Of a stretch of DNA of 64,000 nucleotides, positions 19,561 through 52,904 are shown one piece after another. The DNA comes from Fimicolochytrium jonesii. Its lineage: Eukaryota. Positions within the stretch are counted from its first letter, which is position 1; every line of letters starts with the position of its first letter. Position numbers and translations under genes: made by a program. The notes under the pieces are model-generated. The model saw nothing but the letters and a program-made list of their open reading frames with translations, was not told the DNA's origin and did no database searches. Location: assembly GCF_025526975.1 (NCBI RefSeq), contig NW_026515668.1, forward strand, positions 1,860,001-1,924,000, given 5' to 3'.

Positions 19561-19570
19561 CTGTCGGAGG

Positions 19571-27273: not shown

Positions 27274-29550
27274 TTAGTGTGTGCAATCTAACTTGACGCC
27301 GGTATTCAAACGGCCGCTAGTTTCGCTCGCTCGATCGCATACAGCATCGCCTTGAACATCTACAAAGAAACCACAAACCCGCATCAGTACCCAAACCAAT
27401 ACCGGACCTAAACACGTCTCACCAAAAAAAACCCACCGTCTGAGACTGCCCCCCCTCCTCATCAGCAGCCTCCACAACCGCCCTCGCATTCCGCGCCATC
27501 TCATCAAGCGTGGTGATCAACTTCGCGGCCTTGGCGTCGTTGCGGGCCTTTTTGGCGGCCCAGAAGGTGCGGAGGAGTTCGGTCGCTGTTAGATGGTAGG
27601 TTTGGAGGGTTGCGGGTGGGGGCGGGATGTCTAGTTTGGCGATGGTGAAGAGGGGGATGTGAATATGCTGTTTGTGGGATGTCGCAGGGGTATGGAACGG
27701 GATCAATGGGATGTTTCTTACCGTCGCCACGTTGATGATCCCGTTTTCGCTTCCGTGTCATCTCGTTGAGTTGTTTGAGGACTTTGTCCGCGTTCGAGCG
27801 GTACACCGATGTCTGTGGATTGCTGCATGATCAGAAGGGAATGCCACTTGGTCACACGCCCACCAGAGGATTCTCGCACCTTCGCTAATTGTGGCTGCCA
27901 CCCTAGAATGGTCTGCCGCAAACTCTGCTTGAAAGAAGCAGAATAGACGGCCGTGACATCCTCCTGGCCCGCGGCACTCCCAGCCTGTGCATGGTAGTAT
28001 TTGCTAACGTCGCCAATCATCAGTGCTTTCGCGGCCTGTTTCTGCTCTACTCGTAGGTCGTCCAATTCGGTCGACTCCTTGTACACCTCATCGGCCGGTT
28101 TCGCCGGCTTGGGTAGCGACGCCTGCCCCGCCAAGGTCGATTTTAAAACACCCTCCGAGACGCGGTTGAACTGTCGAATGAGCGGTAGAGAAGCTCTCAC
28201 TCCGCCGGCTCGCATCGTGCTGTCTGGTCGGTTGCCGGTCTCGGTATGGTCCTCGCTTTGCGCGCCGAGATCCAGAAGGTAGTTCGAACTCTCGTAGCTT
28301 GCCGCTTTGGGGTGTTCGGCGTAATCATCGTCATCCTTGGTCTCGTATTTCGCAAAGAACTCGTCGCTGGCTTTGATGGACGCCCCGGCCCGTTTTTGGT
28401 AGTACTTGGACTCGAGGAAGCGGCGGAGGAAGTCTTCGGTGGTTATCTTGTTGGTTGTTACGGTATCATCGTAGGCGCGCTTCACTATCGGATACTGCGA
28501 GAGTATCGACGTGATCATCTCATTGGTGACCTTGTACGTTGTTTCGGTTCCATCGGACCCATTCCCACTCGGGCGGAGTTCAATAATGACTCCTGTCGGC
28601 CCTTTTCGTTGACTCCGCTGCCATTTCTCTTGCGCCAGTAATTCCTGCACGAAAAGCTGTCAGCTTGGGTGAACGAACGCTTGAAGCGGCGCGGCAGCGA
28701 CGGTCGACTAAACGAGTGGTCGAACGAGAACCCATGTCCAACGCTTTGCTCGCGAAAAATCCAACGCTCGCCGGTGCTTGCTAAAAGCCGTAGTGAGGCG
28801 AACATGCGGATTTGGCGCAGTGCGAACTCCCTTCGCTCGCGAAGGCAATCGTCCTGGGACTACGACCTATAGCTCGCCCTCCTCAAGCAACCCCGCGCCT
28901 CAGGCTCGCCGCAGTCCGGATCCGCCCCATCACCGTAGCAACATGCTCCATAACACTCGGAGCTCCGTTGTGCGAATCAACCCTCGCCTATGGCTTGCAA
29001 ACACATACCTGCCTCGCCGCCCAAAAATCGTCCTCGGAGATCAACCTCGACAAAACAAGCGAAGCATGAAGTTGCTTCAGATCCTCGTCCTTCCTCAAGA
29101 TATCATGCCGGATCTGCAAATCCTCATTCGTCGTCGTAGGCTGCGCGACCGCTTTGATCGTCCTGTTATTCGCCTGAATAACATCTCCAAGGAGTGTGAT
29201 GACTCTCGCTCTGTTTTCGACCGCGTCGGGTGCGAGGAAAGTGAGGTTGTGGTTGACCTCGGGCTGTTCGGTGTCGTCGGGGGAAGACTGGGTGACTTTG
29301 AGGATGGGTTTTGCGGGGTTTTTGTTTTGTGCGATTGCTAAACTCACAGAGGTGGAACTCGATTAGCACCTGGGCACGATGACTCTTGGGAGGGAAAGAC
29401 TGGGAACGAACATTTGACGGTCGGATAAGGAACTCGCAGTGCGGGAGTGTCAGCGCCTGTCTCTGTCCAGCTGAACTCCCGCTGGCCAAAGGTGAGGGTG
29501 CCTATGCTTTTGAGGTAGGAGGCGCTGCATTGTAAGCGTGGGCCTGCCAT
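27274..29550 (-). CDS. TFB1: TFIIH subunit p62/Tfb1 (PH plus BSD domains)
   Basis: N-terminal PH-like segment, BSD motifs (LKQLHASLV..ISEDDFWAAR; ILSQYPIVKRAY..FLESKYY), ETGNRPDSTMRAG, ELLRTFW. Confidence 0.9.
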
Positions 29551-29723
29551 TGTGCCCTCTGTGCCTTCTGGCCCTGTCGAGCGCCCGTTGGCTTTTGGGG
29601 CTTTGGGGAGTTTTGAAATTTGCGCCCTCCTTCCTGTCAGTCGCCCCAGCCGTTCGAGGACTTGCGGGCGCTCGTTTTCCCAACGCTCAACAACTACTCA
29701 GTTGACACCACAGCACTGCAACA

Positions 29724-31061
29724 ATGGCTCCCACAACCCCCGCAACAACAGTCTGGGACACGAAAACCCAGCAGTTCCACGGCGGACAAGAATGGCAGTT
29801 CATAGACAACTTCGTAGAGGACTTTTCAGTCACCACAAACGGACTCGGGCTACCCAAAAAGGCTCTCCAGGCCGCGAGAGACTCCCTCGATATCTCCCAC
29901 CACTATCCAGCCGCTGACCAGGAACCTGCAAAGACGAACTTGGCCAAATTCTATGCGCCAGACGGATTCGAGAGTGTTCACGAGCGGCTTTTGTTGGGGA
30001 ACGGCGCGAGCGAGCTTATTGACTTGGTCACTAGGGCGGCACCTGAGGGGCCTTGGAAGCCGGGTCCTTGGACTGTTCAGGTATGTGGAGGCGAGTCAGC
30101 GATAGCGAACGGTCATTTTCATCACTCGCGCGTCGTCGTCAAGAATGGTTAATGGTTGACGTTCGATGGCTGATGATTGATGTTTTTTCATATCCTTTCT
30201 CATAGTACAAAGAGTACGAACGCTCAGCGATCGCGCTTGGCCGTAAAGTGCTTGCGCCCAAGGATGCGACGCCCGCCTCGCTTACATGTATCGTCAACCC
30301 CAACAACCCGACCGGCGACTACATGAACATCGAGGCGCTCAAGAAGTACATTGAGGAGACGGTTGCTGATAACACTGATGTCATGGTTGGTGAGTAAACA
30401 TAAGATCAAGGGAATGGGGCGTCTTGGGAGATCCCCATCTCACTCACTCTCCATCCAACCCCCCACAGACGAATCAATGCAACCATGGCACTCCCCCTCC
30501 TTCCGCTCCGACTCCCTCATCTCGCAACCCACCTGGATCGCCAACCTCTTCCAAACCCGCGGCATCGCCGTCTATCTCATCCACTCCTGGACAAAACTCT
30601 GGTCCTGCACGGGTCTCCGCCTCGGCTCCCTCGTCTGCCCGACCGTCGCCCACTGCACCGCCCTCAAGAAGGTCCAGGTCCCGTGGTCCGTCAACGTCCC
30701 TGCCCTCGCTTTCTTGCAGGTTGTGACTTCAAGCGACGAGCAACCGTTTTTGGATGAGACATGGGCGGTTACCACCCCCTGGCGCACGTACACCGTTGAC
30801 GCTCTCACAACCCTCGGCCAACACGTTAACAGCGGGAAAGGGTGGACGATCACCGGCGAACCCTTCCTCTCGTGGGTGTGGATCGACATGCACGACGCGG
30901 AGGTAGCGGCGCAGGCTGTAGAGTTGGCGAAACGCGCCGGTGTGCCGGTGCGGAGCGGCGTGCCGGGGTATGCGTGCCATACGTGTGTTAGGGCGGCGGT
31001 GAGGAAGCCGGAGTTGGTGGATAAGCTTGTGAGGGCTTGGCAGCCGCTTGTTAAGGCGTAG
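29724..31061 (+). CDS. PLP-dependent class I/II aminotransferase (HisC/CobD-like)
   Basis: FHGG..DFSVTTN, LGNGASELID, VNPNNPTG, DES, SWTKLWSCTGLRLG (PLP lysine); two introns. Confidence 0.85.
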
Positions 31062-32621
31062 ACTCGCCTGAATTGGGGTTCTGAATGTGGGTGTCCGCCT
31101 CACCGATACTCTTCACGCTCGTGGGTGTCACCTTCCGGCGACCCTCCCTTGTTGAACATACACCCCACCTGGCCCCTATCTATCTATCACCACACCTTGC
31201 ATAGACAGTATAGACTTATCACCACGGACTTCCATCAGTCGTATCTATCATATGTATTGCAGCATCCATTCTATCACTTATTTCCTGCTTCTTTATACAC
31301 ATCATCATTATGCTATCTTTACCATGTGTCGGACGATGCTATCGGAATAATCAATGGGAGGTCCATTTGTCGTGCGCGAGCTTTACATGCCTCTCTCGTC
31401 TTACCGGCCACTGCTGCAAGGCCTCACTTGACCAAGGCGGTGACATCCGAGGAAGACGCGTCCCCTTTTCAGAGACGGAGATGCATTGCATTAACATACC
31501 AAAGCACATCACCCATCTAGTTTCCGAACATAGATGACAGGACCAAGTTCGTTCGGCTATTGCCGTGCTTCAAGCGGGATGCAGCATCGTGCTGAGCACA
31601 TGGGCTCAAAGTATCGGCATCCCGCCGGGGCGGCCCATCCCCGCTCTTTATGGACTGCGGACGGGCATACGACTCGGCCTGGGCAGGCAAGCGGGTCTTC
31701 AAACATGGCCCCCGAAACAAGCCGAAGCGTGGCGACTGCAGCGACACGGACGTCCTCGATGCTATGGGCAAGACCCCGGGAGGCAACGAAGGCCGAGGAA
31801 GTCGGTTTTATCTTTCTCTCCCAAACGTTCTCGGAATCGAATCCACTTTCGTTTGAGCGGATGTGGCGCAGTCTGAGCAAATGACGCGCACTTTTCGACA
31901 GCGCGTTGCAGAGTTTGGATCATTCCGTGGTTGGTTTCAGTGCCCCGCGTTTCAGAAGCCCCCCCCCGCGCCGCACACGCAGAGCTATTAAACACCCCCC
32001 TTTGACCTCGATCGCAGAGTCCAATGGAAAACGAGCCCTGTGGGCAGAGGAAACACAGGGGATGCAAAGGTGGGCAAAAATGGGGTCGTTGAGGACAGCG
32101 CGGATGCCGGGAGGGGGTGGGGGCGTTTCAGTTCAGAGGGACGAGCGACCAGTCACGGACGAAAAGAAGCTGGGTAATAAGAGGAAAAAAGCCGGCGGTA
32201 ATTATTACGGGTGGGGAATAATACAGTATGATGAGGAGAGTCCCCCCTTGCGCTTGCTCACAGATCAAACGTGTTGCAGGTTTCCGTGACATATTACTAC
32301 CGGGATTCCCATTCCATCTGTATTGCATTTGAGGCCGTAACTGTCCCGCCGCCCTGTGCCTCTTTTGCTTATCGCATCGTATATAACCGCCACGGCCCCA
32401 CGCAACTCCCCACCCCCTCGCCGCCCTCGAACGCCACCCTCCCTCTTCGCATCATTCCCTTTCTTCTTTCTAAAGGAATCTCATTCTCTTTGTAATAAGA
32501 GGACCTTCGACCTTTGGTTTCCTTCGCCGACGACGACGACGAACGAACGACGAACGACCGCGCGCATACAAGCGGACACAAACACTACTCTCGCTTTCCT
32601 TTCTATAGACTTTAGACAAAA

Positions 32622-33569
32622 ATGGTCAAGCTCGCCCTTATCGTGACCTTCGCTGCGCTGTGCGCTACCGGTGTGTTTGCAGACCCACAGAATGGCCGCC
32701 AACGAGGTGGGCTTGCCCGTGGTGGTGCTGCACGACAACAGCAGGCCGCTGCCGCTCGTGGTGGTGCCGCTCGTGGTGGTGCAGCTGCTGCTGGTGGGGG
32801 TCAACGTGGCGCCGCCGGTCGTGCTGCCGCCGCCGCTCGGGCGAAAGCAGCAGCAGCTGCCGCAGCCAAGGGCCAGGGCAAGAACAACAACGCCGGCAAT
32901 GCAGGAGCGGGAGCAGCTGCGCCTGCTGCTGGGGCTGGGGCCGCCGCCCCCCCTGCTGCCAAACCCGAACCCGCGACCCGCATCACCGAAGTCCCCATCA
33001 CCCAATTCGCCACGGCCCCCTTCTGCGGCGCATCCAACCTGACCCCCTCCGACGGCACACAGATCCGCACGGGCGCCTGCTCCTCCACCGCGCTCGGCGC
33101 CATCCCGGACGTTTCAAAGATGGTCAGCACCATCATCACCTCCCCCGCCAACCTGGCCGTCATCGACGCGACAAAGGACACCCTCGTCGCCGTCGACATG
33201 CTCAACCTCGACACGGGTTTCTTCGCCGACCCCAACAAGCATTACAACCAGCAGCCGCAGACGCTCAACCGCAACGGGATCACACAAGGTCACCAGCACA
33301 TCTCCGTGCAGCCCTTGGTCTCGGGCACGGCCGCGCCGGACCCGACCAAGTTCGCGTTCTTCAAGGGCTTGAACGACGAGTCCAAGAACGGAAAGACATT
33401 GACGGTCACGATCCCCGCGGGAACGTTCAAGACCAACGGCGTGCATCGGATGTGCTCCATGTCTGGAACAGACGCACACCAGCCGCCCATTATGCCCGTC
33501 ACCCAGCGTGGCCCGCAGGACGACTGTATCCGTGTCACGGTGCAGAACGCTGGTGGGGCCGCCGCCTAA
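32622..33569 (+). CDS. Secreted fungal protein with Ala/Gly/Arg-rich N-terminal region and a Cys/His-containing globular domain
   Basis: Intronless 315-aa ORF. Signal peptide, AARGG repeats, GTQIRTGACS, GHQHISVQ, FAFFKGLND, QRGPQDDC. Confidence 0.8.
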   Translation: MVKLALIVTFAALCATGVFADPQNGRQRGGLARGGAARQQQAAAARGGAARGGAAAAGGGQRGAAGRAAAAARAKAAAAAAAKGQGKNNNAGNAGAGAAAPAAGAGAAAPPAAKPEPATRITEVPITQFATAPFCGASNLTPSDGTQIRTGACSSTALGAIPDVSKMVSTIITSPANLAVIDATKDTLVAVDMLNLDTGFFADPNKHYNQQPQTLNRNGITQGHQHISVQPLVSGTAAPDPTKFAFFKGLNDESKNGKTLTVTIPAGTFKTNGVHRMCSMSGTDAHQPPIMPVTQRGPQDDCIRVTVQNAGGAAA

Positions 33570-34533
33570 ACATTTCTCTCCCTCTCCTTGTTCATAGTTT
33601 CACCCAGGCGTAGCCCCCCCGACCCCCACCCACTTTTGTTCATAGACACTGTATATTTCTCGTCTCCATTCGTTTTTGGCCCATCAGCCCGCCCCCTCCT
33701 CTCTTCCGGCGTATTGCAAAAAAACAGAGCCCTCAACCTGTAACATACCTACTCCCTTGGACCGCCATTTTTTTGTACTGTAGATAGAAAGGCTGAACGT
33801 TGCGCCGTGTTGTGGGGGACGTTTCGTTGATATAAGATTCTCTCTTCTTGAAATTAAATGGAATTTTTTCGTGAGATATGGGCTGCAACTGCTACTACGT
33901 ACTGTACGTCCAGGCAGCAAAGCGTTGGCTGGAAACCCTGTGGTCGACACAAACAGACGGCCTCTATGCAGAGGTTGCAACACGATGCAAAAGAGCAGCA
34001 GCAGCCAGAGCAGCACCGCGCGAACTTGATGATGGTGCTCCGAACCAGCTGCTTCCAGGACCCTCCTACGTTCGGATAGACTGTACTGTATAAAGGTCCG
34101 CACAAGAGATGTGTGGCACTCGTTGGCGGGCGGACCCCCTGTCCCTTCCGCGTACGGGTTTGTTCTTACCGAATCCGAGGGGAGTTGTTCTTACCGAAGG
34201 GGAGTGAATCCGAGGGGAGTTGAGCAGAACCGCGCGGGTTCGAATCGCGGGTGGTGCCCCCCGCCGTCAGAGCTCTTTTTGTCGCTTTCTTGCTGAGGGC
34301 GGCATGATGCAACCCGCTCTTCTCGCTCTTCCAACGGCCGGCAACAACAACAACCCCACCCCCACACACAACCCGCACTAAACTCAGCCCTTCTATGCAC
34401 CTTTCAACACCGCCGAATACCCCCCTTTCGGCAAACAAGCACCTCATCCTTCTTTCTGGCACCTCTCCCCACTCGCTACCGCCTCTTACAACCTCTTCAA
34501 GATCACTTGTGTGAAAAAGCACGCTAAGCAGAC

Positions 34534-37014
34534 ATGGCCATCTTCTTTTGGAGAAAGCAGCAGGTGAGGAAGAACGGGACTGTTGCAGGGGCGGGATGGT
34601 GGAGCGTTGTGCTCCGGGTCAGACGTAGAACTGGGCGGGCCCGCCAGCCGGCCCCCGTCTTTTACGAAATGGACGGCCCAAGATGCTGGCGGGTCAAGTC
34701 GAGGCGAGACGTAGTGCGAACGAGGGGGACAACCTCCTCCTCCTTCCTGCAAAGTGGTGGTTAGGGAGGCGGACGTACATTAGTGCCTTCGGCGCCACCT
34801 TGATGGAGAGCCTCTCAAACGAATCCCCACCATCATCACCCCACTCACACAGCTCTCAACCCACCCCCAACAGCTAGACGACGAACAGATCCTCGCCAGC
34901 CTAGACCGCCAAATCCGCCGCACAGAGGTCCGCGTCTCCTCTATCCGTCAACGGCATCAACGGATCAAGCATGCGTGGCTTTATTACTCTGTCTCAATCT
35001 ATGTGTTTGTGCTCGTGCTGTATTTTACGTATTTGAAGCCACGACGGGATCCGTGGGATATTTGGCTGGTCAAGACGGGGGTTGTGGTCGTGGGGGCGCC
35101 GGGGTATGTATTGCGCACCGTAATACCGAGCGTTAAGCGAGGACGAACGCAGCGAAGCGAGCAGAACTGTGAGCGACAGCGAACGATCGTGTATATGACA
35201 CATCGCTCTTTCATCGTTCATGTCTTGCCTCAACAACCTTATCGCGAGCGGAGCGAGCACGGTGTTGTTTTCATCCCATCATGCACTCTCACCGAGCGAT
35301 CACTCATCCATCTTTTTCCTCTCATTCGACCGACAGCATCTACTTTGGGAACCGTTTTATCCGGTACTGGTACCAACGGAAAGAAAAGGCTGAACGTTAG
35401 TGGATCTCGTGCAGAGAATGGTTTTACGATCACGCGAATCTCACCTCTCCATTTTGATTCCATAGGGGATTTATTGGAAAGTCTGAAAGCGAAACAAAAG
35501 GAGAAGGTCGACGCACTGAAAGAGAATGAGGCGTATCGGAAGACACAGCTGTTGTTGCAGCGATATGACACACCGACGAAGGATCGGCCGGCTGGGGTGA
35601 GTTACTCTGGACTTTGCATTGTGACGAAACGATGAGTTTTGTTGGCTCACCGCCTTCATCTGAAGGATGAACTTGTGGACGCAAAGGGACATAGCCGCCC
35701 GACGACTCCTTTACCGTTCCCGCCGTCTCATATCAAAATGGGGCAGCCGTCCAAACAAATGGGACCACCTAGTCTTGCGCCGCCGGGTACACCAGGTGAG
35801 GGAGTTCGTGATCAGCATCTGGTCGATCACGCTGAAAATGTCGTTAATCGCGGACAATAACCCCAGGAATGGCGCCTGTACCAGGAAAACAAATAGACAA
35901 CCCAACGCAAACCACACGCTCCCCATCCCCGTCCCCAGCCTTCCTCTCCATCCCACCCTTCGACCCCACCCAACTACCAAACCGATGTAAGCCGTCCCAG
36001 CCCATCCCAACCTAATCCGCACCCGCATCCATCCCTAAACCATTCCAATATCAGCAGACTCACCCTTACCCCCACCACCAACACCCACGCCCCAACACCC
36101 GTACGCCAAAACATGGTTCGACAAAGTAATCGACGTGATGATCGGCGAGACGAACGACACAAACAGCCCGGCGAGCAAGTATGCGTTGATTTGCGAGGAG
36201 TGTTTTACGCATAACGGGTTGGTGCCGGCTGAGGCTTATTCTGATGCGCGTACGTATGAGATATCATTTTTTTCGTTCGTCCCGTTTCCTTTTCTTCCGC
36301 CTGGGGGTGTGGTCCGTTTCCTTTCCTTCCGCCTGGGCGTGTGTTGGGGTGATGTAAGACCAACGATGACGTTTGTTGAGTTGAATTTATGTTTTCACCG
36401 TAGGCTTCCGCTGCATGCGCTGCGACCACCTCACCATCCCCAAACGCTACGCCAGCATGATCTCCCCATCAAACCTCTCCCCGTCCCAGTCCATCCCCAG
36501 CGACCTCAACACCGCCAGTCCGCGGCATACACCCCCTCCACCCGGGGGGGACGGCGGCCACGTTGCGTTTGCGGACAGTGCGAACGGGAGTGGAGGGATG
36601 ATGTATATGAATCCGAAACTGTCGCAGAGCCAGCCCGCGTTCTTTGCGCCCAGGCATAGTGTGAATCCGTTGGAGGGCCCGCCGCCTGCTGCTGGTGCTG
36701 CGCGGTCTGCACCCGGACACCGAACGGAGAATACGGGCGTTGGCGAGGAGGAGGAGGAGGACATCGCCCCGCCTGCGTCTGGACCGGAACAACAACTACA
36801 CCACGAACAGGAAGCGGCTGCTACGCCGACACCCCCGTCTTCCCAGCCCCAACCGCAACAACAGACGGAAGAAGACGGAGGGACGGGAATGAGACGTCGG
36901 CCGAACGAGAAAAGGGGCGGCCGCGGGAGGAAGGCGGGCAAGGCGGGGAGGAGGCAGGAGGGAACGGGGACGGGGACGGGGACGGATAGTGAGCGGGAGG
37001 GTGCTGTGGAGTGA
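34534..37014 (+). CDS. LNP1: Lunapark ER-junction protein
   Basis: N-terminal EQILASLD, two transmembrane segments, LKAKQKEKVDALKE..YRKTQLLLQRYD, zinc ribbon WFDKVIDVMIG..YALICEECFTHNGL..FRCMRC. Confidence 0.9.
35104..35336 (+). repeat. Lunapark intron 2 carrying four GA-bracketed hairpin units
   Basis: CCGAGCGTTAAGCGAGG, AGCGAAGCGAG, GTGAGCGACAGCGAAC, GCGAGCGGAGCGAGC. Confidence 0.75.
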
Positions 37015-38102
37015 TGTGGGATGAGAGGCGGTAGAAAGCAAAAAAAACGTACGGAGAGACCCCCCCCCCCCCCCCGCACAAAGTAGGCACAACCGCCCAT
37101 ATCACCCAAATGCAGTTGTTAGGAAACCTCTTATCATGTTAGGGCTCTCGTCGTAGTTGGCAGAACGGGAAGGGGAAAGGGAAAGGGTAGATTTGCGATC
37201 CCTGATCCTTTGAGGCAATTGTTTACGGTTGCGTTATATACAGTACAGTATCATCCCTCATGGGTATTGATTCCCATCAATGAATGAAGCATCCAGCGTT
37301 CTGCGCGAGGTGGTTTGAATAGTTTGTGGAACAACACCGTGGACACGCACGCACCTGTCGCTGTCAGAAACCCTGCAAATCTATCTTCCACATCTCTGAA
37401 GCGAATGTTCCCATCGGCGGAAAGTGTGCGGGTGTCCTCCTTTGGATTGTTATATCCTGTATGATGCACAATGAAAGTCTCCACCCGAGCGCCGTCCCGA
37501 TCGTTTCTTTGGGCTGTCCGTCCCACAGCTTTTCATATCCGACGTCGGTGGTTATGCCCGGTCAACCTGGCCTGGTACGAATAGGGGGTGGGGCTGCATT
37601 CTCGTGCGCGTCACCGGCATCGTTGTTGGAGGCTTGTGTCCTCTCCGCGGTCTTCTCGTCGTACCACTCCGTGGTGGTTCTGGTCTGCATCGTCGATGTT
37701 CGTAACATGTGTGCCATATGCGCTTGTCGTCTCCGGCAAGCAAATAGCTCGTTGGCGATCTTGTCTCCGGCTGGTTCTTGTAACGGCATTGTCACGGTCG
37801 GCGAGTCGACAAGTGACCGTTTTTCGACAGCGCGTATCAGCATAGTTCCGCGCATATGGGTCAAAGGACCTCCTCGGCATGTCTGCGAGCGGAACAGATT
37901 GGCGCCTCCAACTCCAACAACAATATACTGCCCGCTGCGGTTTTAGGACTTCTATGACATTCCGAATGAAATAAACCCCTGTGTTCCACCCAACGCACCC
38001 CTGACCCTCCCATTGCGGCAGTCTATATGGTCGGGGGTACAGATTCTATGTCGTCTCCATGCCTGCGTCGGCCTCTCCCTCTTCTCCCCCAACCACGCCC
38101 TC

Positions 38103-39912
38103 TCACTTCCACCCCGGAATCCACACCCCCGTCCGCCCCATATACTCCCCATATCGATCCCCAAAAAAGTTCAAGAGCGTGTACTCCTCATACCTAATCC
38201 TGCTCCTGAAGAACCTGCTCAGCGTTAATGCGAACGCGAGGGCGGAGAACGGGTTGGAGGCGACGAGTTGGGTGCCGAGGGCCCAGTAGTAGAAGGCTGT
38301 GTAGGAGGGGTGGCGGAAGATTCTATAAGGCAGGGGATGTTAGTGTGGAAGTCCTAAGGAGGGACAATAGGGGGAGACGTACGAGTAGACACCGGACGTG
38401 ACGAGTGTGTGATGTGTCTCCTTTTCGTCGGCGACGAGGTGGGTGAAGTTTGCGCCGGCTGTGCACATTGCTGCTGAGCGGAGGGATTGAGACGCGAGGA
38501 GGAGCAGGATTGCTGGTGAAGAAAGTAGTGTCAGTTTTCGACGAGTCGATTGGAGGACCAGGGAAATGTTTACCGAGGTAGTTCCACCACCGGAAGATGT
38601 TCATGGGTGGGTATAGCCATCCCCAGACAAAGTACTCGATTACGCCTGCGATCATCGCGAATTGGTATTCACGGCCGTTGTTCAGGAGGAATGCTGTCAT
38701 CGTAGTACGTAGTGGTCGTAGTCAGTACCAGCGTCTCTAGGCGACGCGCAATTCACATCAATGCCATTCCTTACATGATATCTTAACCTCATTCCCATAC
38801 ATCGCCGTCATCAGATACTCCAGGATATGAAACATCGCCAAAGCGTTCAAGAAGAACCCCAGCCCGCGGTAGTTTTCCGAGTACAATCCTAGAACCAGCC
38901 CCACGCCATGCAGCACTCCAATCAGGTACGCGTGGGCAGCAATGTTCTGCGGCGTGTGCTGTCCGTCGAATATGGGCAAGCCGAGCGGGCCTAGGCCGTG
39001 ATCGGGCTGGGTTTTGGCGGGGACGGAGGAGGACCCTGCGATGCATTGGAGGATGAGGCAGAGCGGGTTGCAGAGAACGAGTTGAGTGCTTAGGCGCCAG
39101 AGTGTGAGAGCGTGCCGGGCGATCTTCATTGCTAGTCTGAGGACGCATAGATTTCAGCAATCGAGAATCGGCAATGATGTGGTTCGCAGTGCATACCTGT
39201 CCCGGGGCCCAGAACTCAGTCCGATCAAAGTGAACGTTCGGATATTCTGCGTGGCTACCGCAATGATCACGCCTAAATGCGCATCCCATAGTGGTGAGTT
39301 TCTCGCCTTCCCCGTTTCCGAAACTATTCCCGCACCAGAACCCTCCAGCGCTCACCGACAGAACTCACTGCTGAGAAGGCCGCAAATTGCGGAAACAGAT
39401 AACTCCGCACAGCATACTCCAGCAATCCCAGGATCAGATACACGTTCTCCTGTACGCCGCCCCCTATCAAGAAAGCTAGCGATTCCGACGCGTTAGGCAC
39501 ACGCCTGGCCATTTTCCCATGGACAAAAGCACATCTTACATCGTATCCCCTGCTCCTGCCTCGACATAGCTCTCGTGATATACTCCAACCCCATCCCCAC
39601 AGCGACAAGAGCCACATACGCGCTGGGCGCCAGTGCCCACGCCTCAGTAGACCGCAGCGCGACACCCGCCCCCGTCGCAGACCCGAGGATGAAAGCGTAC
39701 ATTGCGACATTCTGCGGGGTGTGTTCTGTGGTGAAGAGCGGGAACCCGAGAGCGTTTTTCCGGGCGGCGTGCGGCGTTGTGCGGATGACTTTTGTGGCGG
39801 AGCTGCTTCGGGGATGTTTTTGGGATGAGCGGCTGCGTGCTGGGGAGGAATTGGTGCTTTGTGGGGAGGAAGTCCTGCCTCGGTTGCGCACGGGGGATGA
39901 GTTCGGCGACAT
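38103..39912 (-). CDS. STE14: Isoprenylcysteine carboxyl methyltransferase with an N-terminal degenerate duplicate domain
   Basis: C-terminal copy has FHILEY, FLLNNG, NFTHLV..HTLVTSGVY..RHPSY, RIRYEEYTLLNFFGDRY. N-terminal copy is homologous but lacks the catalytic motifs. Confidence 0.88.
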
Positions 39913-40167
39913 TGCTGAATATTCAGGAGTATCAGGAGACTATGTGTGCGTGGCAGTAGGTATCGGTGTCAGGTTCTCTCTATGTGCCAGAAGGACGACG
40001 AAATGCCCTGCAGAAGGTCACTTCGAAGTCAAGAAAATGTTCCCACGCCAGTCCCACGCCAGAAGCGCTTGTGGGCGAAAGTCCGACGGAAAGGGCTCGC
40101 GGCGATTGCGACTTTCCGACCGGATAACCATCCCCCACCGCACAGAAACACAACTCGTTCAACAAAC

Positions 40168-41420: not shown

Positions 41421-41576
41421 TTTTCCAGCATCCTTGCCGGTTGGGTGGTGTGCCGCAAATGGGAAGAGAGAGGGAAGAGACGTCCGGATGGCTGGACACA
41501 GCTCCCCTCTCTACTTTCTCTCGTACGTCAACTGTAAGGCACACATCGAAAGGCGTCCATCTACCCTACCACTAGC

Positions 41577-44013: not shown

Positions 44014-44198
44014 GGGAGCGGATAAATGTATCGAGAAGTGGGTGGAGGTCGGTCGGAATTGTGGCGAAGAATTCCCCAAAAAGCTTCTTCCTTGCTCGTT
44101 GAGCGGAGCAACAACCGACCTCGATTCCAATTCCCACGACGCATCCCGCAACCCATATCACTTGCAAACAACTGCCGCACCATCCCAGCTCCAGAAGT

Positions 44199-44645
44199 AT
44201 GCCATACCCACGCCCGCTCCCCGCCGTCCTCCAAATCTACCGCTCAATCCGCCGTCTCCACAAGGACCTCCCCCCAGGTACCGTCCCCCTTACACTATAT
44301 TCAAACGCTCTTTATGTTCCCTCACTGACATTGTGATGTACCGGAATATCCTTAGCCCTCCGGCTCGTAGGCAACAACTACATCCGCGACGAATTCCGGC
44401 GCCACCGCACCGCCGACGCCGCCTTCGTTTCGCATTTCACGGCTGAATGGGCGCGGTATCGGGATGAACTGGCATCTCAGATCGAGTCACAGAGACGGAG
44501 AGACGCGGAGGAGGTGGTGATTGGGAGGAAATTGACGAGGGAGGAACTGGATGCGTTGAGTGATGAGCAGGTTGGGCAGTTGAGTGAGTTGAGGACTGCT
44601 GCGAGGGGGGAGGAGCGGGGTAAGGCTGGGGCGAGCGGAATATAG
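44199..44645 (+). CDS. SDHAF3: Succinate dehydrogenase assembly factor 3 (Acn9/Sdh7, LYR family)
   Basis: Exons 44199-44277 and 44356-44645 give IYRSIRRLHKDLPPALRLVGNNYIRDEFRRHR..GRKL..LDALSDEQVGQL. Not resolved in the ORF track. Confidence 0.9.
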
Positions 44646-45024
44646 TATCATGCCGGTTGAAGGGCTGAGCGACGACGGGACGGCACGGGATGATCGGAGG
44701 AGAAAGACTGAGAGCCGAGTCGACGTGATGAAGAGGAACATATGGGAGGGGCACGGTCTCTCTATTCGACATATCTACAAAGCGGCAGCAGACATTCTGC
44801 GGTACTACAACGACGGCTGCGTTTAGGGGGCAGCGAAAACCGAACCACGCGCTAGCGCCCACCCACCCGTATAGATCTAGCAGTAGCTAGGCTAGCTAGC
44901 GCTCGCCAAATCCGTCTAGTCTTCTATTCTCCCTCGGCCGACGAGTCGACGGAAGGAAGTCGAGCGCGGATGCCACCAAGTCAACCCACCCAGCATCCCC
45001 CCTCATCCCTCTGCGAACACCACC

Positions 45025-47358
45025 CTACTCATCCCCACCGACCTCACCCTCCCCGTCCACAACATCCACCACCTCCACCACCGCCTTCTTCTCCCCTTGA
45101 GGAGGATGCACATACCCGGGCTGCATATACTCGGGCTTCTTCTCCTTCAACACCTTCGCATCCGCCGTCAAAAACCACGCGTAGTCACAGCTGCGGCCAT
45201 CGACTATACGGATCCAGTCGTCAAACCTACAAAATCACATACCATCACATCAGATCATAGCGTATCATCGTATATCAGCAGAGATAGATAGAGGGAATAT
45301 AACTCACGCGTTAGTCTCAACCTCCTCCTCCACCAACCGCGAATAGATCCATTTCTCCTTAAACGCGTCAATCTCGCCTTCGTAAGCGTCGAACGAGACG
45401 CCGGCGCGGTCGTTGGCTTCTGAGGCCCATTTTTCGTTGTACATCCTGTAGACGGTCTGAATCAAATCGTAAGGGTTTAAATGAATGTTGGGCAGTGATG
45501 GGGGAATTGGGGAGGATGGGAAAGGGTTTTGAACGCATACCCGCTCGAGCAACAACCCCAACGCGGGCGCTTTGGGGATATTAAGTTTTTCTTTGAGGAA
45601 GGCTTCGTTGATGAGGGTGGCCGGGGTGGAGGTGCGGATCATCAGGATCGCCAGGCCTGAAAAGAAGTTGCGTTCGGTGAGATCGTCAATGGTGTCTCGT
45701 AGCGAATTCAGCAATGGGGAAGAGATACGTTACCAATCATCTTGCGGATCTGGTGCAGCATGAACGATTGCCCAAAGATCTTGCATTTGACCCATTCCAA
45801 ATCGCCGCGGATGATGGGGTCGCTGACCTGTATGTCAAAGAAACGAAGTGACCTGAGCGACCATGTCCCGAAAACGATACGCGTCCACCCCAAAAAAATG
45901 CATAAAGGGATAGCCTACCGTCAAATCGATCATGAATCGCATCGCACTACTATCTCCAAACCCCTTCCCCACCGTAAAATTATGGAAATTATGCGTCCCC
46001 TCATACCCCTTCAACGCCTCCCTCAGTTTCCCCAGTCGTTCCTCCCCAATCCTAAACGCCCTCCTTGCCGCCAACTGATCCGCCGTCGGCTTCGCCGTAA
46101 GATCATCGAAGGATTCATTGGCGTGGGTGGGCAGCTCGGTGGTGGATATCCCATGGGATTTAGCGAGGGCGGAGAAGGGGTAGAGGTAGGGAGCGGCCGG
46201 GGCGAGGACAAAGGTGGGGAGAAAGTATTCGTAGATACGGGAGTCGCAGGCGTTTTTGGCGTGGAAGGCGTTGGTGGTGCGGACGTAGCCTGGGGTGTGA
46301 GGCAGGGAGGGTGGTTTAAGTTTTAGGGTAGGGGATTGGGGTGCATTGTCAGAGGGATGTTATAACGCACCCCAGACACGTATTTGCTCTGGGAGATGTT
46401 GGTTGATTTTTGAGATGATGGTGGGGTCTTCGATGATCATTTTTAGGGAGCAGACTTGGCCGGCTGCGTGCACGCCTTTGTCTGTTCGGGCTGCGCGCAT
46501 GAATTGGATCTGATAGGAAACATAATTGAGTTCCTGTAAGACGAGTGCGATGCCTTATATACCCCGTATGCATACCTTTGCCGGGTCGTTCGCATTGTCT
46601 TTGCTGACGGCGCCTGATTCTGCTAGTGCTTTATGCAGCTCTGCTTCGATCGTTGCGACTCCGGGGTTGCTGTAAGAATCAGGGAAGGGAGATATCAATG
46701 ATCGTTTTCACTATCCTCCATCATGTAAGGGATCCCGAGCGCCAGCCGAGTGGTCAATGAGCGAAGCAGCTCCCTTCGCTCGCTAACGCTCGGTCTCACC
46801 ACGCTGCGGGATCCCGGATCGAACCAACCACTCCCTCGCCTACGGCTCGCTCAATACTCACATTTGCATTCCATTGTAACCAGTCCCACAATACCCCATC
46901 AAGAGCGCCACCTTCTTCTTTGGCAATCTCGGCCCCGAATCCTCCGCATCCCCTCCCTCTCCTCCTCCCTCACCCTCAGCACCCTCCTTTGTCTCCCTGG
47001 GTCCCCAAGCTCTCCCCCGCTTAGCACTCTGCGCCTTCCCACTTGGAGCGGTCCTGCGTTTGTTCTTACTCCTTCCACTTTTCTTGTCGTTGGAGGTGGC
47101 TATGACAGAGACGTCGGGTGAGTCGTCGCCATCGGGCGTGTCGAGGCCTATTGAGCCTGTGTTCTCTGTTGTTAGTGGTGCTGTGGGTGCTGAGACACCG
47201 ACACCTTCGCCTGCGGTTGCTGGGAGGGAGGAGGGGGTTGAGAGGTCTAGTTTTATACGTTTGTCGGCGGGTGCTCCTTGCGAGTCCGCGGCGACCTCTT
47301 CTGCGGAGCGTTCCCGTTTGGAGCCTGCAGCGAGAGTGGAGTCTGTTTGGTCCGTCAT
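45025..47358 (-). CDS. PUS1: tRNA pseudouridine synthase 1 (TruA family)
   Basis: KKKVALLMGYCGTGYNGMQ, ARTDKGVHA, CDSRIYEY, GTHNFHNFT, GQSFMLHQIRKMIG, IPKAPALGLLLE. Confidence 0.95.
46670..46861 (-). repeat. PUS1 intron 1 carrying GA-bracketed hairpin units
   Basis: Sense strand ATTGAGCGAGCCGTAGGCGAG directly after the donor, and CCGAGCGTTAGCGAG. Confidence 0.7.
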
Positions 47359-48182
47359 GACTGGGACTGTTCTACTTGACCCCATGTATGGGAACTTGGC
47401 CAAAAGTGAGAGTTACTCGAAGGACTGGCCGACAGAAAACAGACCGTGTTATTAAAGTCGCAAAAGAATGCACGTGACGTGGATGCACAAATGACTTCAC
47501 GCGTCCGCAATGGCTCCGACGCCAAGTCCATTCCATTCTGTGAGAGGGAACGTGTGGGGGTAATAATACTGTAGGACAATATGCCCACCAGGGCCGAGGA
47601 CAACGTGTGCTGGGCCCCCCCAATACGAGTATGAGCAAGGGCCGTGTTACGCACGCCTTAATGATTGTATGCGTTCTGTGCGAATCACTCAGGGCATGTC
47701 TGCTGATCTGCTATTGTTCATTTTCCTGGGCTCGCGAGTCGCTGGGTGAACCCGCTGGCGGGTATATTGGTGGTGGGTGCAACTTTTCGGGCCTTTCCAT
47801 CGGTTATCCTCCTCAAAAGACATTCTTCGCTCACTTAAAATCCATCCACCGCCCACGTTCTTCTTTTGTATCTATCGCCATCTATCCATCTGCCGTTTGT
47901 CCGTCTGTGTATCTCATTGTAGTTTGTGTGTGTGTGTGTGCACATAGCGATATCCGAACGTGTTCAACACCTGCCTTGGCGAACACGTCCCCCCTGCTGC
48001 GGCCCCCGCGCGAAAAGCAAGGCTTACGGCTCGTCCCCAAGCTCCACTTATCACTGTACGCCTAGGGGTGTGTGCACCCATCCACCCCATATCGCACCTA
48101 TTTATTCCCATCCGCCATGCAAACCCACCGACCCCCACCACCAGCGACCCTCCCCATCACCATCCCCCGCCCACCGCCGAAA

Positions 48183-50650
48183 ATGGAAGAAGTGTCCCCG
48201 CTGCTGACCCCCTCGATCGACGCCGAAACGCACCCGTTCAAGTTCTCGGCGCTCAAGCTCGAGAATCCCATCCTGCCCGTGTCCATCCCGTTTGTCGCGG
48301 AAAAGTCGCCGAGCCCGCCGACGAGCGATACGACTGTGTCTGATTACGGGGATGGGAATGGGCATGGGAATGGGAATGGGAAGACGGGCGGGACGGCGCC
48401 GGCGGCGGACGAACCGGGAACGGCGCGAGAGCAGGGAGAGGAGGTGAAGAAGAAGAAGTGGGGGGATGCGACGAAGGTGAAGCCGGGGGAGTTTGAGCCG
48501 GAGAGGCATTTCTATCCAAGGGTTTTGAAGTGAGTAGGGACAGCGACAGGCGGGTCTGGCGAGCGCAGCGGGGCCTGGTGCTCCATGTCCAGCGAAGGAA
48601 AAATTGAGCGAGCGAAGCGAGCCTCCTGCGTTCTGCGAGGGGCAGCGAATCCATCTTCTTCATCCGCAGCATCGCTGTTGCGAGCGTCGCCATCATCTCG
48701 TTAAACACATATCTCATACGATCCTACTCCTTCCCTCAAACTCCCCTCCAGCGCCAACATCCACCCTCTCGTCGCCTCCTTCTTCTCCCTCGGCAACGAA
48801 CGCATCATCGCCCGCTACACCCACCTGAACCCGCAGGTCGACATGGAAGCGCTCACAAAACTCCTCGCGTACAAACCCACCTACTTCCAGTGGGCCGGTA
48901 ATGTCGTTCCGATCCCGTACTTTTTTGCATCATGGAGAAAACATTTGGGGGAAGAATGTAATTGAACGAGAAAAACCCACCCGGGGATTCTAGGATCGGA
49001 CTTGTTCAATGTGACGACCGCCAGCGGCCAACGCCAGATGATCATCGTCGAGACCAATTCGTGCCCGTCGGGTCAGAAATCGATGCCGTTGTTGTCGGAC
49101 CCTGAGGAACATGGCGGTTACGGTATGCGCGTCTCCCCCTCTACCCTTTTCCCCCATTCCCATGGCCCCCAATCTCTCACGCCCCCATTCGCCCACCAAC
49201 AGGTATAGTGATCTCCCGCACCTTCCTCCCCCTCCTGCGCACGCTCCCCCCCACCCTCGGCGGCCTCGCCGTCGTCTACGACAAGAACATGATGGAGGCC
49301 TCAGGCTACGCTGCCGTCATGGCCGAGGTGTGTGGCGAGGAGGTTTACCTGGTCGAGTATTACCTGGAGGACCCGGACCCGCCGGTCCAGTGGCGGGACG
49401 GGGTGATGTGGGTTCGGGATCGGGTGAAAGGTAAACTGTCCCAAAAACCAAAACCCTCCGTTTCTTTTCCCTATGGTTTTGGGGGGGTGGGGTGGAACTG
49501 ACGACAGTATTTTCATTCCATTTTTTTTCTTCAAGAATGGCATCCGATCCGCGCCTGTTTCCGCTACGTCACGCAAAAGCCCTGGTCGCGGTTCCCGCTG
49601 TCCACACGCACGCTCGTGCTCAACAGCGTGATCTCGTGTCTCGCGGGCGGCCGCAACAAGATGATGGCCGCGCGCGCGTACGATTTCCTCAACGCCGAGC
49701 TGGCCGGGACCGGGCTGGGCGTGCGGGTGCCCGAGACCATCCGCAACGTCACGAAGGGGGAGATCCCGCTCTGGCTGGATAGTATGGGCGGGCATGCGGT
49801 GGTCAAGGTGCCTTACTCTAACGCTGGTAGCGTATCCGTATCCCTGCCTTTGTCCCATGCCCCACGGTCCTAAACATGTTATGATAACACTCCCCCCGTA
49901 AAGGCCAGGGCGTCTACACAATCACGACCGCGACCGAACTCTCCACGTTCATGTCGACCCCGCACCACTACGGCAAATTCATCGTGCAATCCCTCGTCGG
50001 CAACGCGTCGTGGTCGTCCATCTCGCGCACGGGCCGCTTCTACCACGTCGGGACCATCCCCAACAAGAAGAACCACACCTTCGTCACCGACCTGCGCTGC
50101 ATGGTGTGTGCCGACGCCGGCGGGTTTGCCCCCGTCGCGATATACGCGCGGAGGGCCAGACGCCCGCTGCTGAGGAGGCTGGAGGATGACCCCAGTGGTG
50201 CGTTTATCCATGTGTGCTTGGTCCTACCCCGTTGGGTCAACTAACCCCTCGGTTTTACTTACGGCCCCTGTAGTAACATCGTGGGAGATGCTGGGCACGA
50301 ACCTCTCGGTGCGGCTCCCGAGCGGGGACTGGACGACCGAAGCGCAGCGGCTGCTGCTGATGGACCGCAAAGACTTCAACCAACTGGGGCTCGGGATCGA
50401 CGACCTGATCGACGCGTACATCCAGACGGTGTTGAGTGTGATCGCGATCGATAAGATGGCGGGGCGGTTGATGCGCGTGAGGAAGGGGTTGGGTGAGCGG
50501 AACGAGCGAGAGGGGGGCGAGGTGCAGGGGGACGTGGGGGGTGGGGAGGGGGACGGGCAGAAGGCGTGGGAGAGCGAGTATGAGTTTGATTTGGAGTTGT
50601 TTGAGGCGTTGAATCCGGATAAGGCGCTTTTGAAGGAGATTTTGGGGTGA
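48183..50650 (+). CDS. Uncharacterised ATP-grasp-like (glutathione-synthetase-like fold) protein
   Basis: Multi-exon ORF with [40 protein letters not shown] and DLRCMV, a pattern resembling circularly permuted ATP-grasp ligases. Alternative start at 48117. Confidence 0.65.
48530..48751 (+). repeat. ATP-grasp gene intron 1 carrying GA-bracketed hairpin units
   Basis: GCGAGCGCAGCGGG at 48559 and ATTGAGCGAGCGAAGCGAGC at 48603-48622. Confidence 0.7.
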
Positions 50651-50702
50651 TGAGCTCGGTCGGTGCTCGGGCTGTGGACTAAGCAGCGGGACTCCCGCGC
50701 GC

Positions 50703-50739
50703 GTGTGTATGTGTGTATGTGTGTGTGTGTGTGTGTGTG
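50703..50739. repeat. (GT)n microsatellite
   Basis: Imperfect GT dinucleotide run downstream of the ATP-grasp-like gene. Confidence 0.9.
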
Positions 50740-51176
50740 GAAGGGGAGGGGGGCAAATGTGCGTGGGTTTTCCTTGGGTTGTGGGTCTTTTTTTGGCGAT
50801 GGGGTGTGTTATTGCCTCCGTTTGTAGTTTTCCACCTGCGGATTTTTGATTTCATGATTAATTTTCCTTTCGTATGTGATTATGTATCCTGTTCTAAGTG
50901 CATCATTACTCTTTCCGCTTCGTGTGGTTTTGGGCGAGGATACTTCCAAACGAAACTGATCGCATTGAGAGCTCCATGGAGTTTCAACGGAATGTCGGGA
51001 TCTTATATGCAGGCCACGGCTATTTACATTAGCATACGTAACGTAGTACACTACTACATATTCATAGCGTCTCTTGGGCTACAGAAGCTACAGCGAGTCA
51101 ATGGGGTATACGGAACCGTTGGCGGGTTTACTGTACATTTTTCCGAGTCGGGTGTCGGTTGGCAGTTGCTCGCGCG

Positions 51177-52904
51177 TCAATCACCACCATGATCCTTCTC
51201 CTTACGAGTCTCCACCACCGGCTCGCCGTCCTCCAGCACCGTGCGGTTCACAACGCTCTTCACAGGCGCACCGGTGGTGGTCTCAGACCCCTCCGCACCC
51301 TCAATCTTCCCCTCGACCACCTCCGTCTTATCGCCCTTCCTCTTCTCCACCCTGATCTCGGCCCCGTCAACCCCGCTCTCCGCATCCTTGACCTCCTCCG
51401 CAACCTCCTCAATAAAATCCTCCACCGTCTCCAAGAGCCCCTCGGCTTCAGCCTCATTCAGCGCATCCGCAGGCGTATAAGTCTCCCCCCTAATCCTATG
51501 CGTCAAAAACCGCTGGGTCACCGTAACATCCAGCACAAAGTCCGAATAAAACCCAAAACAGCAGTGCTTGAACGCCGGCCAGCGGTATGTGGGCCCCAGG
51601 TCCGGAGAGAGGTTTTCGGTGTAGGAGAAGGCTTTTGTGTGCAGGAGGGCTGCGATGGCCATTTCGATGCAGAGGATGAAGGCGTTGAGGGAGTTGGAGA
51701 TTTCGAGGGAGGACCAGTGAGGGGTGGAGTGGATGATGTGGGTGTTGGAAAGGATGGAGATTGTGACGCTTTGCCAGAAGGAGAAGAAGATTACGAACTG
51801 GGTGGGAGGGATCAAGGGAGGTAATGAGTGGGTGGACCTAAAGGGGTGGCAGAAAGAACCGTTCGTCGGGTCAGGTACTCACCTTGATGGAGACGAATTT
51901 CAGGACAGGGTGATATCCCTTCAACTCGCTCTTTATCGTAGTATAAATTTGCACCAACGCGAACATTGCCACCGTAACGCTAATCGAGTTGACAATGATA
52001 ATCCACAGATGCGCAAACCGCGGACTCATCGAATCCTCACAAAACTTCCCCGTCAACTGTGTCACCACCGCCAGCACAGTCGTCACGGGTCTCAGCACCA
52101 CATACTGCAGCGTGCCAATCTTGCAATAATGCAAGAAATGCGGGCGCGAGGGGCGGTACGTCCACCGTTGCAGCGGGAATACGAAATTCATAGTGGGTTT
52201 CGAAGCGAGCACTTCGGCTTGCGCTTGGATGTCGGCGCCGATGTAGGCGAGGAGGAGCTGGAAGAACTCGTAGATGACGACGGCTTCGTAGCAGTCGCGG
52301 AGGACGTCGAGGTAGACCGTCATGCCGCGGAAGGCCAGGCCTAGGCAGGAACACACGCTGTAGACTGGGACCATGAACAATATCCGAACGATGTGTTTCT
52401 AGAATGTATGAGGGAAGGAATGAGTGTGTGTGAACCATCGACCATGGACCATCGATCGTCAACCATCGAACGTCAACCATTTAACCACTCATCAACAGGT
52501 ACGATTATTATGAGGAGAGTCTTGCGCCTTTGGCGCAATATGATCCTCGCTTCGCTCGCACAAGATCTGACGCTCGCTGATGCTCGCACTCACGGCGTTC
52601 GTCCTCGCTAGCGCTCGGTATTACAGTGGACTCGTTCACGTACCTGATAAACGGGCGAATGATAATACCCCCAATGCTGCCAAACCAACAAAAAGCTCAA
52701 GCACACGGAAAAAACCGTAAACGCGCCACTCAGCGCCCACCCAACCAAAAACAAATGATACCCGTCACTGTCAGGCGGCGGTGGACCGTGGTGTTGCGGG
52801 GGCATTGGGCAGTCCCAGTCTGATATGATCGGCTGCGGTGAGTCGTGGGTGGGTGGTGAGCCGGCGAGGAGGGTTTGGAGGAGAAGGGGTGGGAGGGGCG
52901 ACAT
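51177..52904 (-). CDS. TMEM184: TMEM184/organic solute transporter Ost-alpha family protein
   Basis: QKHIVRILFMVPVYS, RDCYEAVVIYEF, GTLQYVVLRP, KFVSIK..FSFWQ, CIEMAIAALLH. Confidence 0.92.
52399..52643 (-). repeat. TMEM184 intron 1 carrying three GA-bracketed hairpin units plus a 3' block shared with another intron
   Basis: Sense strand CCGAGCGCTAGCGAGG, GCGAGCATCAGCGAGC, CGAGCGAAGCGAGG; 3' block TGGTTAAATGGTTGACGTTCGATGGTTGA. Confidence 0.75.

What the first reader, a model, noticed from the sequence alone, without database searches (positions are those of the whole stretch)
28645..52643. Family of long introns in unrelated genes carrying a covarying GA-bracketed mini-hairpin motif, mostly on the sense strand
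Seen in sequence: most introns here are ~50-95 nt, but longer ones contain clustered units of the form stem-GA-GC(C)-loop-(G)GC-GA-stem. These are lunapark 35104-35336, PUS1 46670-46861, ATP-grasp 48530-48751 and TMEM184 52399-52643, with degenerate versions in TFB1 28645-29008 and aminotransferase 30081-30205. Outer pairs covary (CC/GG, GT/AC, GC/GC) and the inner stem is GC/GC or GCC/GGC. Loops vary but include all four GNA triloops (GAA, GGA, GCA, GTA). The clearest units read the same way on the pre-mRNA strand although host genes lie on both strands. Established knowledge: d(GCGNAGC) mini-hairpins and tandem sheared G.A pairs are exceptionally stable in single-stranded DNA and occur in ssDNA origins and rolling-circle/HUH-type elements. 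Inference: this is either an intron-creating or intron-resident mobile element (Introner-like) with an ssDNA stage, or a shared intronic structured regulatory element.
Basis: partly seen in the sequence, partly recalled or inferred. Interest (0 to 1): 0.85.

Follow-up and report, generated by a model that had tools for sequence, protein, structure and literature searches.

The report
Decayed DNA-hairpin repeat family in introns
Six long introns in unrelated genes of a soil chytrid fungus share sequence, the same orientation and small hairpin motifs of the kind that single-stranded DNA forms, so they are likely worn-down copies of one mobile element that may have created these introns.

Summary
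The feature is real. The host is Fimicolochytrium jonesii. Strict GA-GC-loop-GC-GA units number 8 against 0.95 in shuffles. Relaxed units: 14 sense and 1 antisense in the six introns, none in 47 other introns. Only 6 of 11 long introns carry them.

The introns are homologous beyond the motif: a 49-nt block at 86% and a 41-nt block at 88%. Both intron ends are more alike than in control introns, and all six sit at 18-31% of their coding sequence. Loops are G..A in 8 of 10 units and no tetraloop is GNRA, which points to DNA rather than RNA folding. Same-strand clusters of the unit also occur in phage and plasmid DNA (38 loci, control pattern 3), but mostly not beside HUH genes.

Best reading: an old introner-like element with a single-stranded DNA stage (0.4). 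Rivals: insertion into existing introns (0.3), a host-selected first-intron element (0.2). No genome, reads or orthologous DNA were available, no transposase was found, and a published screen lists zero introner families in this species.

The parts
52399..52643 (-). TMEM184 first intron (245 nt, phase 0); most complete copy: four tandem units, a 7-bp hairpin, a 7/14-nt tandem repeat
52581..52628 (-). Block A (units 1-2 and 5' flank), 86% identical over 49 nt to the lunapark intron
   Evidence: E about 1e-8 in the window
52545..52587 (-). Units 3 and 4 (loops ATCA and GAA); similar to TFB1 28742-28781 and ATP-grasp 48604-48621
52522..52538 (-). Perfect 7-bp hairpin with AAA loop; degenerate counterpart in TFB1 near 28800-28822
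   Evidence: sequence
52433..52490 (-). Block D: degenerate 7/14-nt tandem repeat shared with the aminotransferase intron
35104..35336 (+). Lunapark second intron (233 nt, phase 2): three strict units (35126-35142, 35169-35184, 35244-35258) and degenerate ones; block A at 35116-35163
30081..30205 (+). Aminotransferase first intron (125 nt, phase 0): one degenerate unit (30095-30110) and block D (30143-30182, 88% over 41 nt to TMEM184)
46670..46861 (-). PUS1 first intron (192 nt, phase 2): units at 46834-46850 (GTA loop, 3-bp inner stem) and 46778-46793
46729..46815 (.). Imperfect palindrome inside the PUS1 intron (DNA fold z -4.5 and -2.7), the only long stable fold among the six introns
48530..48751 (+). 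ATP-grasp first intron (222 nt, phase 2): one strict unit (48608-48622) and two degenerate ones; its link to the family rests on the motif words alone
28645..29008 (-). TFB1 intron (364 nt, phase 0): degenerate units; 5' end matches PUS1, middle matches TMEM184
56830..57106 (-). Doubtful seventh member: coactosin-like gene intron (277 nt), no unit, collinear with the ATP-grasp intron
   Evidence: z 7.4, but nhmmer E 0.2 and no signal once motif words are masked

Best explanation
The six introns share homologous blocks and one orientation and are likely old, decayed copies of a single non-coding mobile element that probably entered the 5' third of transcribed genes as single-stranded DNA and likely brought its own splice donor, thereby creating these introns. 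Shown: common descent for lunapark-TMEM184, aminotransferase-TMEM184 and lunapark-PUS1; sense polarity; intron-only and 5'-third location; hairpin-compatible pairing. Inferred: the units folded as DNA (tandem sheared G.A pairs, a 2-3 bp stem, a G..A loop) on the sense, non-template strand, which is the strand exposed during transcription; an enzyme encoded elsewhere recognised them and copied that strand into other transcribed genes; sense copies were spliced out and tolerated; afterwards deletions and internal duplications left a mosaic of modules. The element is probably inactive now. Confidence in a mobile-element origin of any kind is about 0.75; in this full mechanism 0.4.
For: Homology survives masking of the motif words: lunapark-TMEM184 z 7.2, aminotransferase-TMEM184 z 6.2, lunapark-PUS1 z 3.9. 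Of the 15 pairs among the six, 10 have p <= 3/200 in the same orientation and none in the opposite one. Both ends are more alike than in random sets of six other introns: nt 7-22 p=22/20000, nt 7-30 p=0/20000, last 35 nt p=59/20000. Homologous pairs start at matching distances from the donor (TFB1/PUS1 1 nt apart, lunapark/TMEM184 3 nt apart). Location: relaxed units 10 per kb on the sense strand of these introns against 8 in 22.7 kb intergenic and 11 in 35.9 kb coding DNA, both strands; 6 of 6 in introns has p <= 2e-5 under random insertion; 6 of 6 in the first third of the coding sequence against 10 of 48 (p=0.0003; approximate gene ends). DNA fold: 8 of 10 loops are G..A (p 8e-9 if independent, which they are not); the G-starting tetraloops GACA, GCTA, GTTA, GATA fit d(cGNNAg) (reference title) and none fits RNA GNRA (recalled rule); GNA triloops on two G-C pairs are very stable in DNA (PMC3201870). 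The same unit forms one-strand clusters in phage and plasmid contigs: 38 loci against 3 for a permuted pattern, with 19 extra units on the same strand and 0 opposite. Fungal ILEs and Micromonas introners are gene-biased, sense-strand and decay with time.
Against: Gozashti et al. 2025 list 0 introner families for both F. jonesii assemblies, although their pipeline needs BLAST e < 1e-5, similarity up to the boundaries and 4 members, which old copies could miss. No pair aligns end to end at high identity (mean column identity 36%). The 3' similarity is modest: no family pair exceeds the best background pair, and the last 20 nt do not beat composition shuffles (37/300). ATP-grasp and TFB1 links weaken or vanish when motif words are masked. 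No target duplication beyond the ordinary. No mobilising enzyme among 103 ORFs. The unit is generic, so it does not point to one enzyme class. Intron absence in relatives is untested; I recall, unchecked, that vertebrate PUS1 has an intron within a few bases of this site. First-intron position fits a regulatory role equally well. Six introns in one window is a small sample, and membership was chosen after seeing the motif.
Confidence: 0.4

Rival explanations
1. A non-autonomous DNA element (HINE/Helitron2-like or other) inserted into existing short introns near gene starts; antisense and exonic copies were purged, and the fixed distance from the donor reflects the small tolerated gap in a 77-nt intron.
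For: Mosaic modules, repeated termini-like hairpins and an internal 7/14-nt tandem repeat resemble DINE-1/HINE anatomy; FoHeli termini carry GAA-loop hairpins and can be duplicated; zero introner families published; weak 3' end similarity.
Against: No recognisable copy in about 22 kb of intergenic and UTR DNA; no subterminal inverted repeat of 11 nt or more; similarity reaches within 7-16 nt of the donor (p=268/20000).
Confidence: 0.3
2. A host-selected element of first introns: a structured DNA (non-template strand, R-loop) or pre-mRNA signal, perhaps domesticated from a mobile element, that affects transcription or splicing.
For: 5 of 6 are the first intron in my list and all lie at 18-31% of the gene; pairing and G..A loops persist while flanks decay; strict sense polarity.
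Against: Unpaired flanks and a simple repeat are shared too, which indicates copying; unit number and order differ among introns; many units are broken; no Rfam match at E <= 1; whole-intron RNA folding is not better than shuffles except PUS1; host genes share no evident pathway.
Confidence: 0.2
3. Decayed (GCGA)n microsatellites and chance similarity; the hairpins are a by-product of the repeat.
For: The commonest unit is a GCGA repeat with one extra A; the ATP-grasp link disappears on masking.
Against: Three unit types with doubly compensated outer pairs (CC/GG, GT/AC, AC/GT), an AC/GT and a GCC/GGC inner stem, and non-motif homology at E about 1e-8.
Confidence: 0.07

Closest known systems
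Introner-like elements (ILEs) of Dothideomycete fungi (Collemare et al. 2013, PMC3609843, first third of the text read) and Micromonas introner elements (Verhelst et al. 2013, PMC3879977, passages and Discussion read)
   Same: Related introns in unrelated genes, longer than ordinary introns, on the sense strand, built of shared motifs, decaying with time; no TSD or TIR.
   Different: Not near-identical; no stable whole-intron RNA fold except PUS1; hairpins are of DNA type and lie on the sense strand, not on the cDNA strand of a reverse-splicing route; different phylum; intron gain untested.
HLE2 non-autonomous elements: DINE-1/HINE (PMC4067079), FoHeli (PMC5148889), HELIANO definitions (PMC11417382); passages read
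   Same: Short non-coding elements with small hairpins (GAA loops in FoHeli), internal tandem repeats and duplicated termini.
   Different: No 11-18 nt subterminal inverted repeats, no defined ends or TT target, no intergenic copies, no Rep/Hel partner seen.
GA-bracketed GNA mini-hairpin clusters of phages, plasmids and integron attC-like sites
   Same: Identical unit, clustered on one strand; the free loop is G..A in 35 of 38 loci (many loci are near-duplicates).
   Different: No homology beyond 17-33 nt around the unit; prokaryotic or viral setting. The attC label for L124 is my reading by eye from recalled box motifs plus folding.
Replitrons (Craig 2023, PMC10288648; passages read)
   Same: Eukaryotic elements with a single-stranded stage, hairpins and orientation-specific insertion.
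   Different: No terminal direct repeats or Rep gene identified; the hosts named in the passages read are algae, plants and protists.

Membership tests
Introner / ILE | Similar introns in non-paralogous genes, same orientation | tested here: met
Introner / ILE | Similarity extends to both exon-intron boundaries | tested here: inconclusive
   5' ends clearly, 3' ends modestly more alike than controls; no end-to-end alignment
Introner / ILE | Near-identical copies, at least 4, at e < 1e-5 | tested here: not met
   best blocks 86-88% over 41-49 nt; published screen gives 0 families
Introner / ILE | Longer than ordinary introns | tested here: met
   125-364 nt against median 77
Introner / ILE | Stable predicted RNA secondary structure | tested here: not met
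   z from -0.5 to +1.1 in 5 of 6; PUS1 -2.5 (the model does not score sheared G.A pairs)
Introner / ILE | Intron absent at the orthologous site in relatives | not testable with these tools
   no genome held; only proteins of relatives were obtained
Helitron (HLE1) | 5' TC, 3' hairpin plus CTRR, insertion between A and T | tested here: not met
   no shared CTRR position; none at all in lunapark
HLE2 / HINE | 11-18 nt subterminal inverted repeats and 3' stem-loop | tested here: not met
   no perfect inverted repeat of 8 nt or more in 5 of 6 introns; 9 nt in PUS1; decay could hide them
HLE2 / HINE | TT target and an autonomous Rep/Hel partner | not testable with these tools
   element ends undefined; no genome; none among 103 window ORFs
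Replitron | Short terminal direct repeats and Rep transposase | tested here: inconclusive
   ends undefined; no Rep hit in the window
MITE | Terminal inverted repeats with target duplication | tested here: not met
   only the PUS1 internal palindrome is MITE-like
Intronic snoRNA or other Rfam RNA | Match to an Rfam model | tested here: not met
   0 matches at E <= 1 in the whole window

The most novel reading that the evidence does not exclude
A transcription-coupled, single-stranded-DNA introner: an element peeled from the non-template strand and pasted into the non-template strand near the start of other active genes, recognised through sheared-G.A mini-hairpins. It would explain sense-only, gene-only intron gain without reverse transcription, and if this window is typical (6 of 55 introns) it made about a tenth of this chytrid's introns.
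Probability: 0.17. Interest if true: 0.88.

Novelty: new variant of a known kind. Interest (0 to 1): 0.55.

Why it matters
How sense-only, gene-only introners without TIRs or TSDs move is an open question; reverse splicing is the usual proposal. A family whose conserved structure is of DNA type and lies on the non-template strand offers a different, testable route. It also suggests that old introner families below standard BLAST thresholds can be found by structure, in a species screened as having none. If the introns prove ancient, it is an undescribed intron-resident repeat with an odd strand and position bias, of lesser interest.

Tried and rejected
No genome is held. No sequencing run was listed (no evidence either way), so splicing was not checked with reads.

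Metagenome scan for block A gave 5 loci: 4 are related copies of one repeat, where the match in L121 lies inside a copia gag frame (chance), and 1 is an attC-like array. None is homologous beyond the unit. Viral scans for block A and block D gave 0 and 0; a looser pattern gave 120 mostly chance loci. Plasmid BLAST of the TMEM184 cluster: 12 records, all E >= 1.

The lunapark intron's open frame found 1 protein among 1.84 billion, a tandem-repeat ORF matched outside the units; rejected as chance. A search for exon fragments that might reveal the intron in relatives returned 1 uninformative protein.

My first two gene-model runs diverged and were dropped; plus reading by eye gave the intron list, which is incomplete. 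Standard folding does not recover the units. No covariance model was built: G.A pairs cannot be modelled and there was no genome to scan. A CAG exon end in 3 of 6 against 5 of 49 (p=0.03) is too weak to call a target duplication. In L150 the match lies inside the gpA frame, so it is not a control-region example.

Literature searches listed no paper describing this family; the library lacks most subscription journals, and supplement files 13-14 of PMC12130899 were not searched.
Full report
Setting. An exon of the TMEM184 gene is 100% identical to an NCBI protein of Fimicolochytrium jonesii, on a 2.24-Mb contig; the nearest relatives found are Powellomyces, Thoreauomyces and Geranomyces at 72-80%. 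No genome and no sequencing runs were available, so all genomic statistics come from this 64-kb window.

The introns. Joining the flanks restores the frame at all six. The NCBI lunapark model splices the 233-nt intron exactly; relatives' TMEM184 proteins run through the spliced junction, while the F. jonesii model starts downstream of it. A self-trained gene model and reading by eye gave 53 introns, median 77 nt, later 55, of which 11 exceed 105 nt. Four carry strict units, two degenerate ones, five show none.

The motif. GA-GC(C)-loop-(G)GC-GA with two or more outer pairs occurs 8 times against 0.95 in 60 shuffles; the bare core is not enriched (23 against 17.8). Allowing any inner stem and one outer pair gives 10 sense and 1 antisense unit in the six introns and 0 sense, 2 antisense in the other 47. 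A relaxed search gives 14 sense and 1 antisense in 1,381 nt, 0 in 4,007 nt of other introns, 8 in 22.7 kb intergenic and 11 in 35.9 kb coding DNA. Outer pairs are CC/GG, GT/AC, AC/GT and GC/GC in 7 of 10 units; three units keep only the first pair. This is variation among paralogous units, not covariation across species.

DNA or RNA. Loops begin with G and end with A in 8 of 10 strict units. GNA triloops closed by a sheared G.A pair are very stable in DNA even on two G-C pairs (PMC3201870, passages), and a reference title there names d(cGNNAg) as a stable DNA tetraloop motif. The G-starting tetraloops here (GACA, GCTA, GTTA, and GATA in a degenerate unit) all have a pyrimidine third, so none fits RNA GNRA (recalled rule). 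Every strict unit has a pyrimidine before the first GA and a purine after the second, the context I recall for tandem sheared pairs in DNA. Whole-intron RNA folding beats shuffles only for PUS1. An RNA role is less likely but not excluded.

Common descent. Lunapark and TMEM184 share 49 nt at 86%, aminotransferase and TMEM184 41 nt at 88%; the second block is a 7/14-nt tandem repeat with no unit. With motif words masked, these two pairs and lunapark-PUS1 stay significant (z 7.2, 6.2, 3.9); TFB1 links weaken (z about 2) and ATP-grasp links vanish. Ten of 15 pairs are significant in the same orientation, none in the opposite. TMEM184 is the fullest copy; the others hold subsets, and PUS1 has an extra palindrome. 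A coactosin-like intron is a doubtful seventh member.

Position. The six 5' ends (nt 7-30) and, more weakly, 3' ends (last 35 nt) are more alike than random sets of other introns (0 and 59 of 20,000) and than composition shuffles (0 and 2 of 300); neither control handles splice signals and composition together. Random insertion would put all six in introns with p <= 2e-5. All lie at 18-31% of the coding sequence against 10 of 48 other introns in the first third, and 5 of 6 are first in my list (gene ends approximate, a TFB1 intron further upstream is possible). Six of six sense has two-sided p=0.03.

Elsewhere. No homolog beyond the unit was found in metagenomes, viral contigs or plasmids. A two-unit pattern hit 38 viral-collection loci against 3 for a permuted control; many of the 38 are near-duplicates. 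The free loop is G..A in 35 of 38 and 19 extra units lie on the same strand, none opposite. Of 50 neighbouring ORFs scanned with Pfam and 28 with PHROGs, terminase genes lie beside 7 loci, a MobA/MobL relaxase beside 1 scanned locus, a capsid S-domain beside 1; one match lies inside a gpA gene; three 16-17 kb contigs carry the cluster 99-149 nt from both ends. In L124 the unit caps long attC-like hairpins. So the unit is a generic feature of mobile DNA that goes single-stranded, not a mark of HUH enzymes.

Mechanism. Shared descent with patchy modules indicates an old mobile element. Intron-only, sense-only, donor-anchored, 5'-biased copies are most simply explained if the element carried the donor and inserted into transcribed genes; that is the pattern of fungal ILEs and Micromonas introners. 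The hairpins form on the sense strand, not on the cDNA that reverse splicing would give, so I infer a DNA stage on the non-template strand (0.4). Against: a screen of 8,716 genomes lists zero introner families for this species (PMC12130899 supplement file 7; method section), there is no end-to-end identity, no target duplication and no enzyme among 103 ORFs. Insertion into existing introns (0.3) explains the mosaic but needs extra filters for strand and place; a host-selected first-intron element (0.2) explains position but not the shared unpaired flanks; microsatellite decay (0.07) fails on the compensated pairs.

Membership. It works like an ILE but fails the near-identity and RNA-stability tests, and the gain test could not be run. 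Helitron, HLE2/HINE, MITE and Rfam features were tested and not met (definitions from passages). Earlier notes of this scan on other fungi describe hairpin-cored intron repeats; they are unchecked leads and share no sequence with the TMEM184 cluster.

Verdict. A real family that my searches did not find described, a new variant of a known kind, mechanism open. Interest 0.55.

Noticed in passing
window 34784-35635 (+): Retaining both lunapark introns 35104-35336 and 35396-35465 (233+70 nt) keeps an open frame of 283 codons; probably chance.
   Followed up: partly
window 19569-19702: MITE-like element: 34-nt inverted arms, 97% complementary, 66 nt apart, with TA at both ends, Tc1/mariner-like by recall. 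Unrelated to the family.
   Followed up: no
window 17400-19500: Probable retrotransposon relic: zinc-knuckle ORF (E 2e-4, below cut-off) and degenerate direct repeats.
   Followed up: no
window 2585-12321 (+): Nup160 gene model of about 3,100 codons with a long C-terminal extension of 69-87 nt repeats; fusion or lineage-specific tail not checked.
   Followed up: no
window 52644-52900 (-) and P0001: The NCBI TMEM184 model omits the conserved first exon upstream of the 245-nt intron; a mis-annotation or a sign of poor splicing.
   Followed up: partly
window 36250-36403 and P0028: The NCBI lunapark model appears to read through this 154-nt intron and loses the last cysteine pair kept in relatives.
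   Followed up: partly
window 34564-34873, 56421-56685, 56830-57106: Three other long introns (310, 265, 277 nt) without strict units; two hold GC-rich inverted repeats, one a 30-nt G run.
   Followed up: partly
P0005 versus window 51798-51882: A Geranomyces model retains 27 residues at the position of the second TMEM184 intron, so that short intron is shared.
   Followed up: partly
L126-L163: One-strand clusters of the same unit upstream of terminase genes and about 100-150 nt from both ends of 16-17 kb phage contigs; role unknown.
   Followed up: partly
window 38103-39960 (-): Two adjacent, similar-looking ICMT-like coding regions, by eye only.
   Followed up: no
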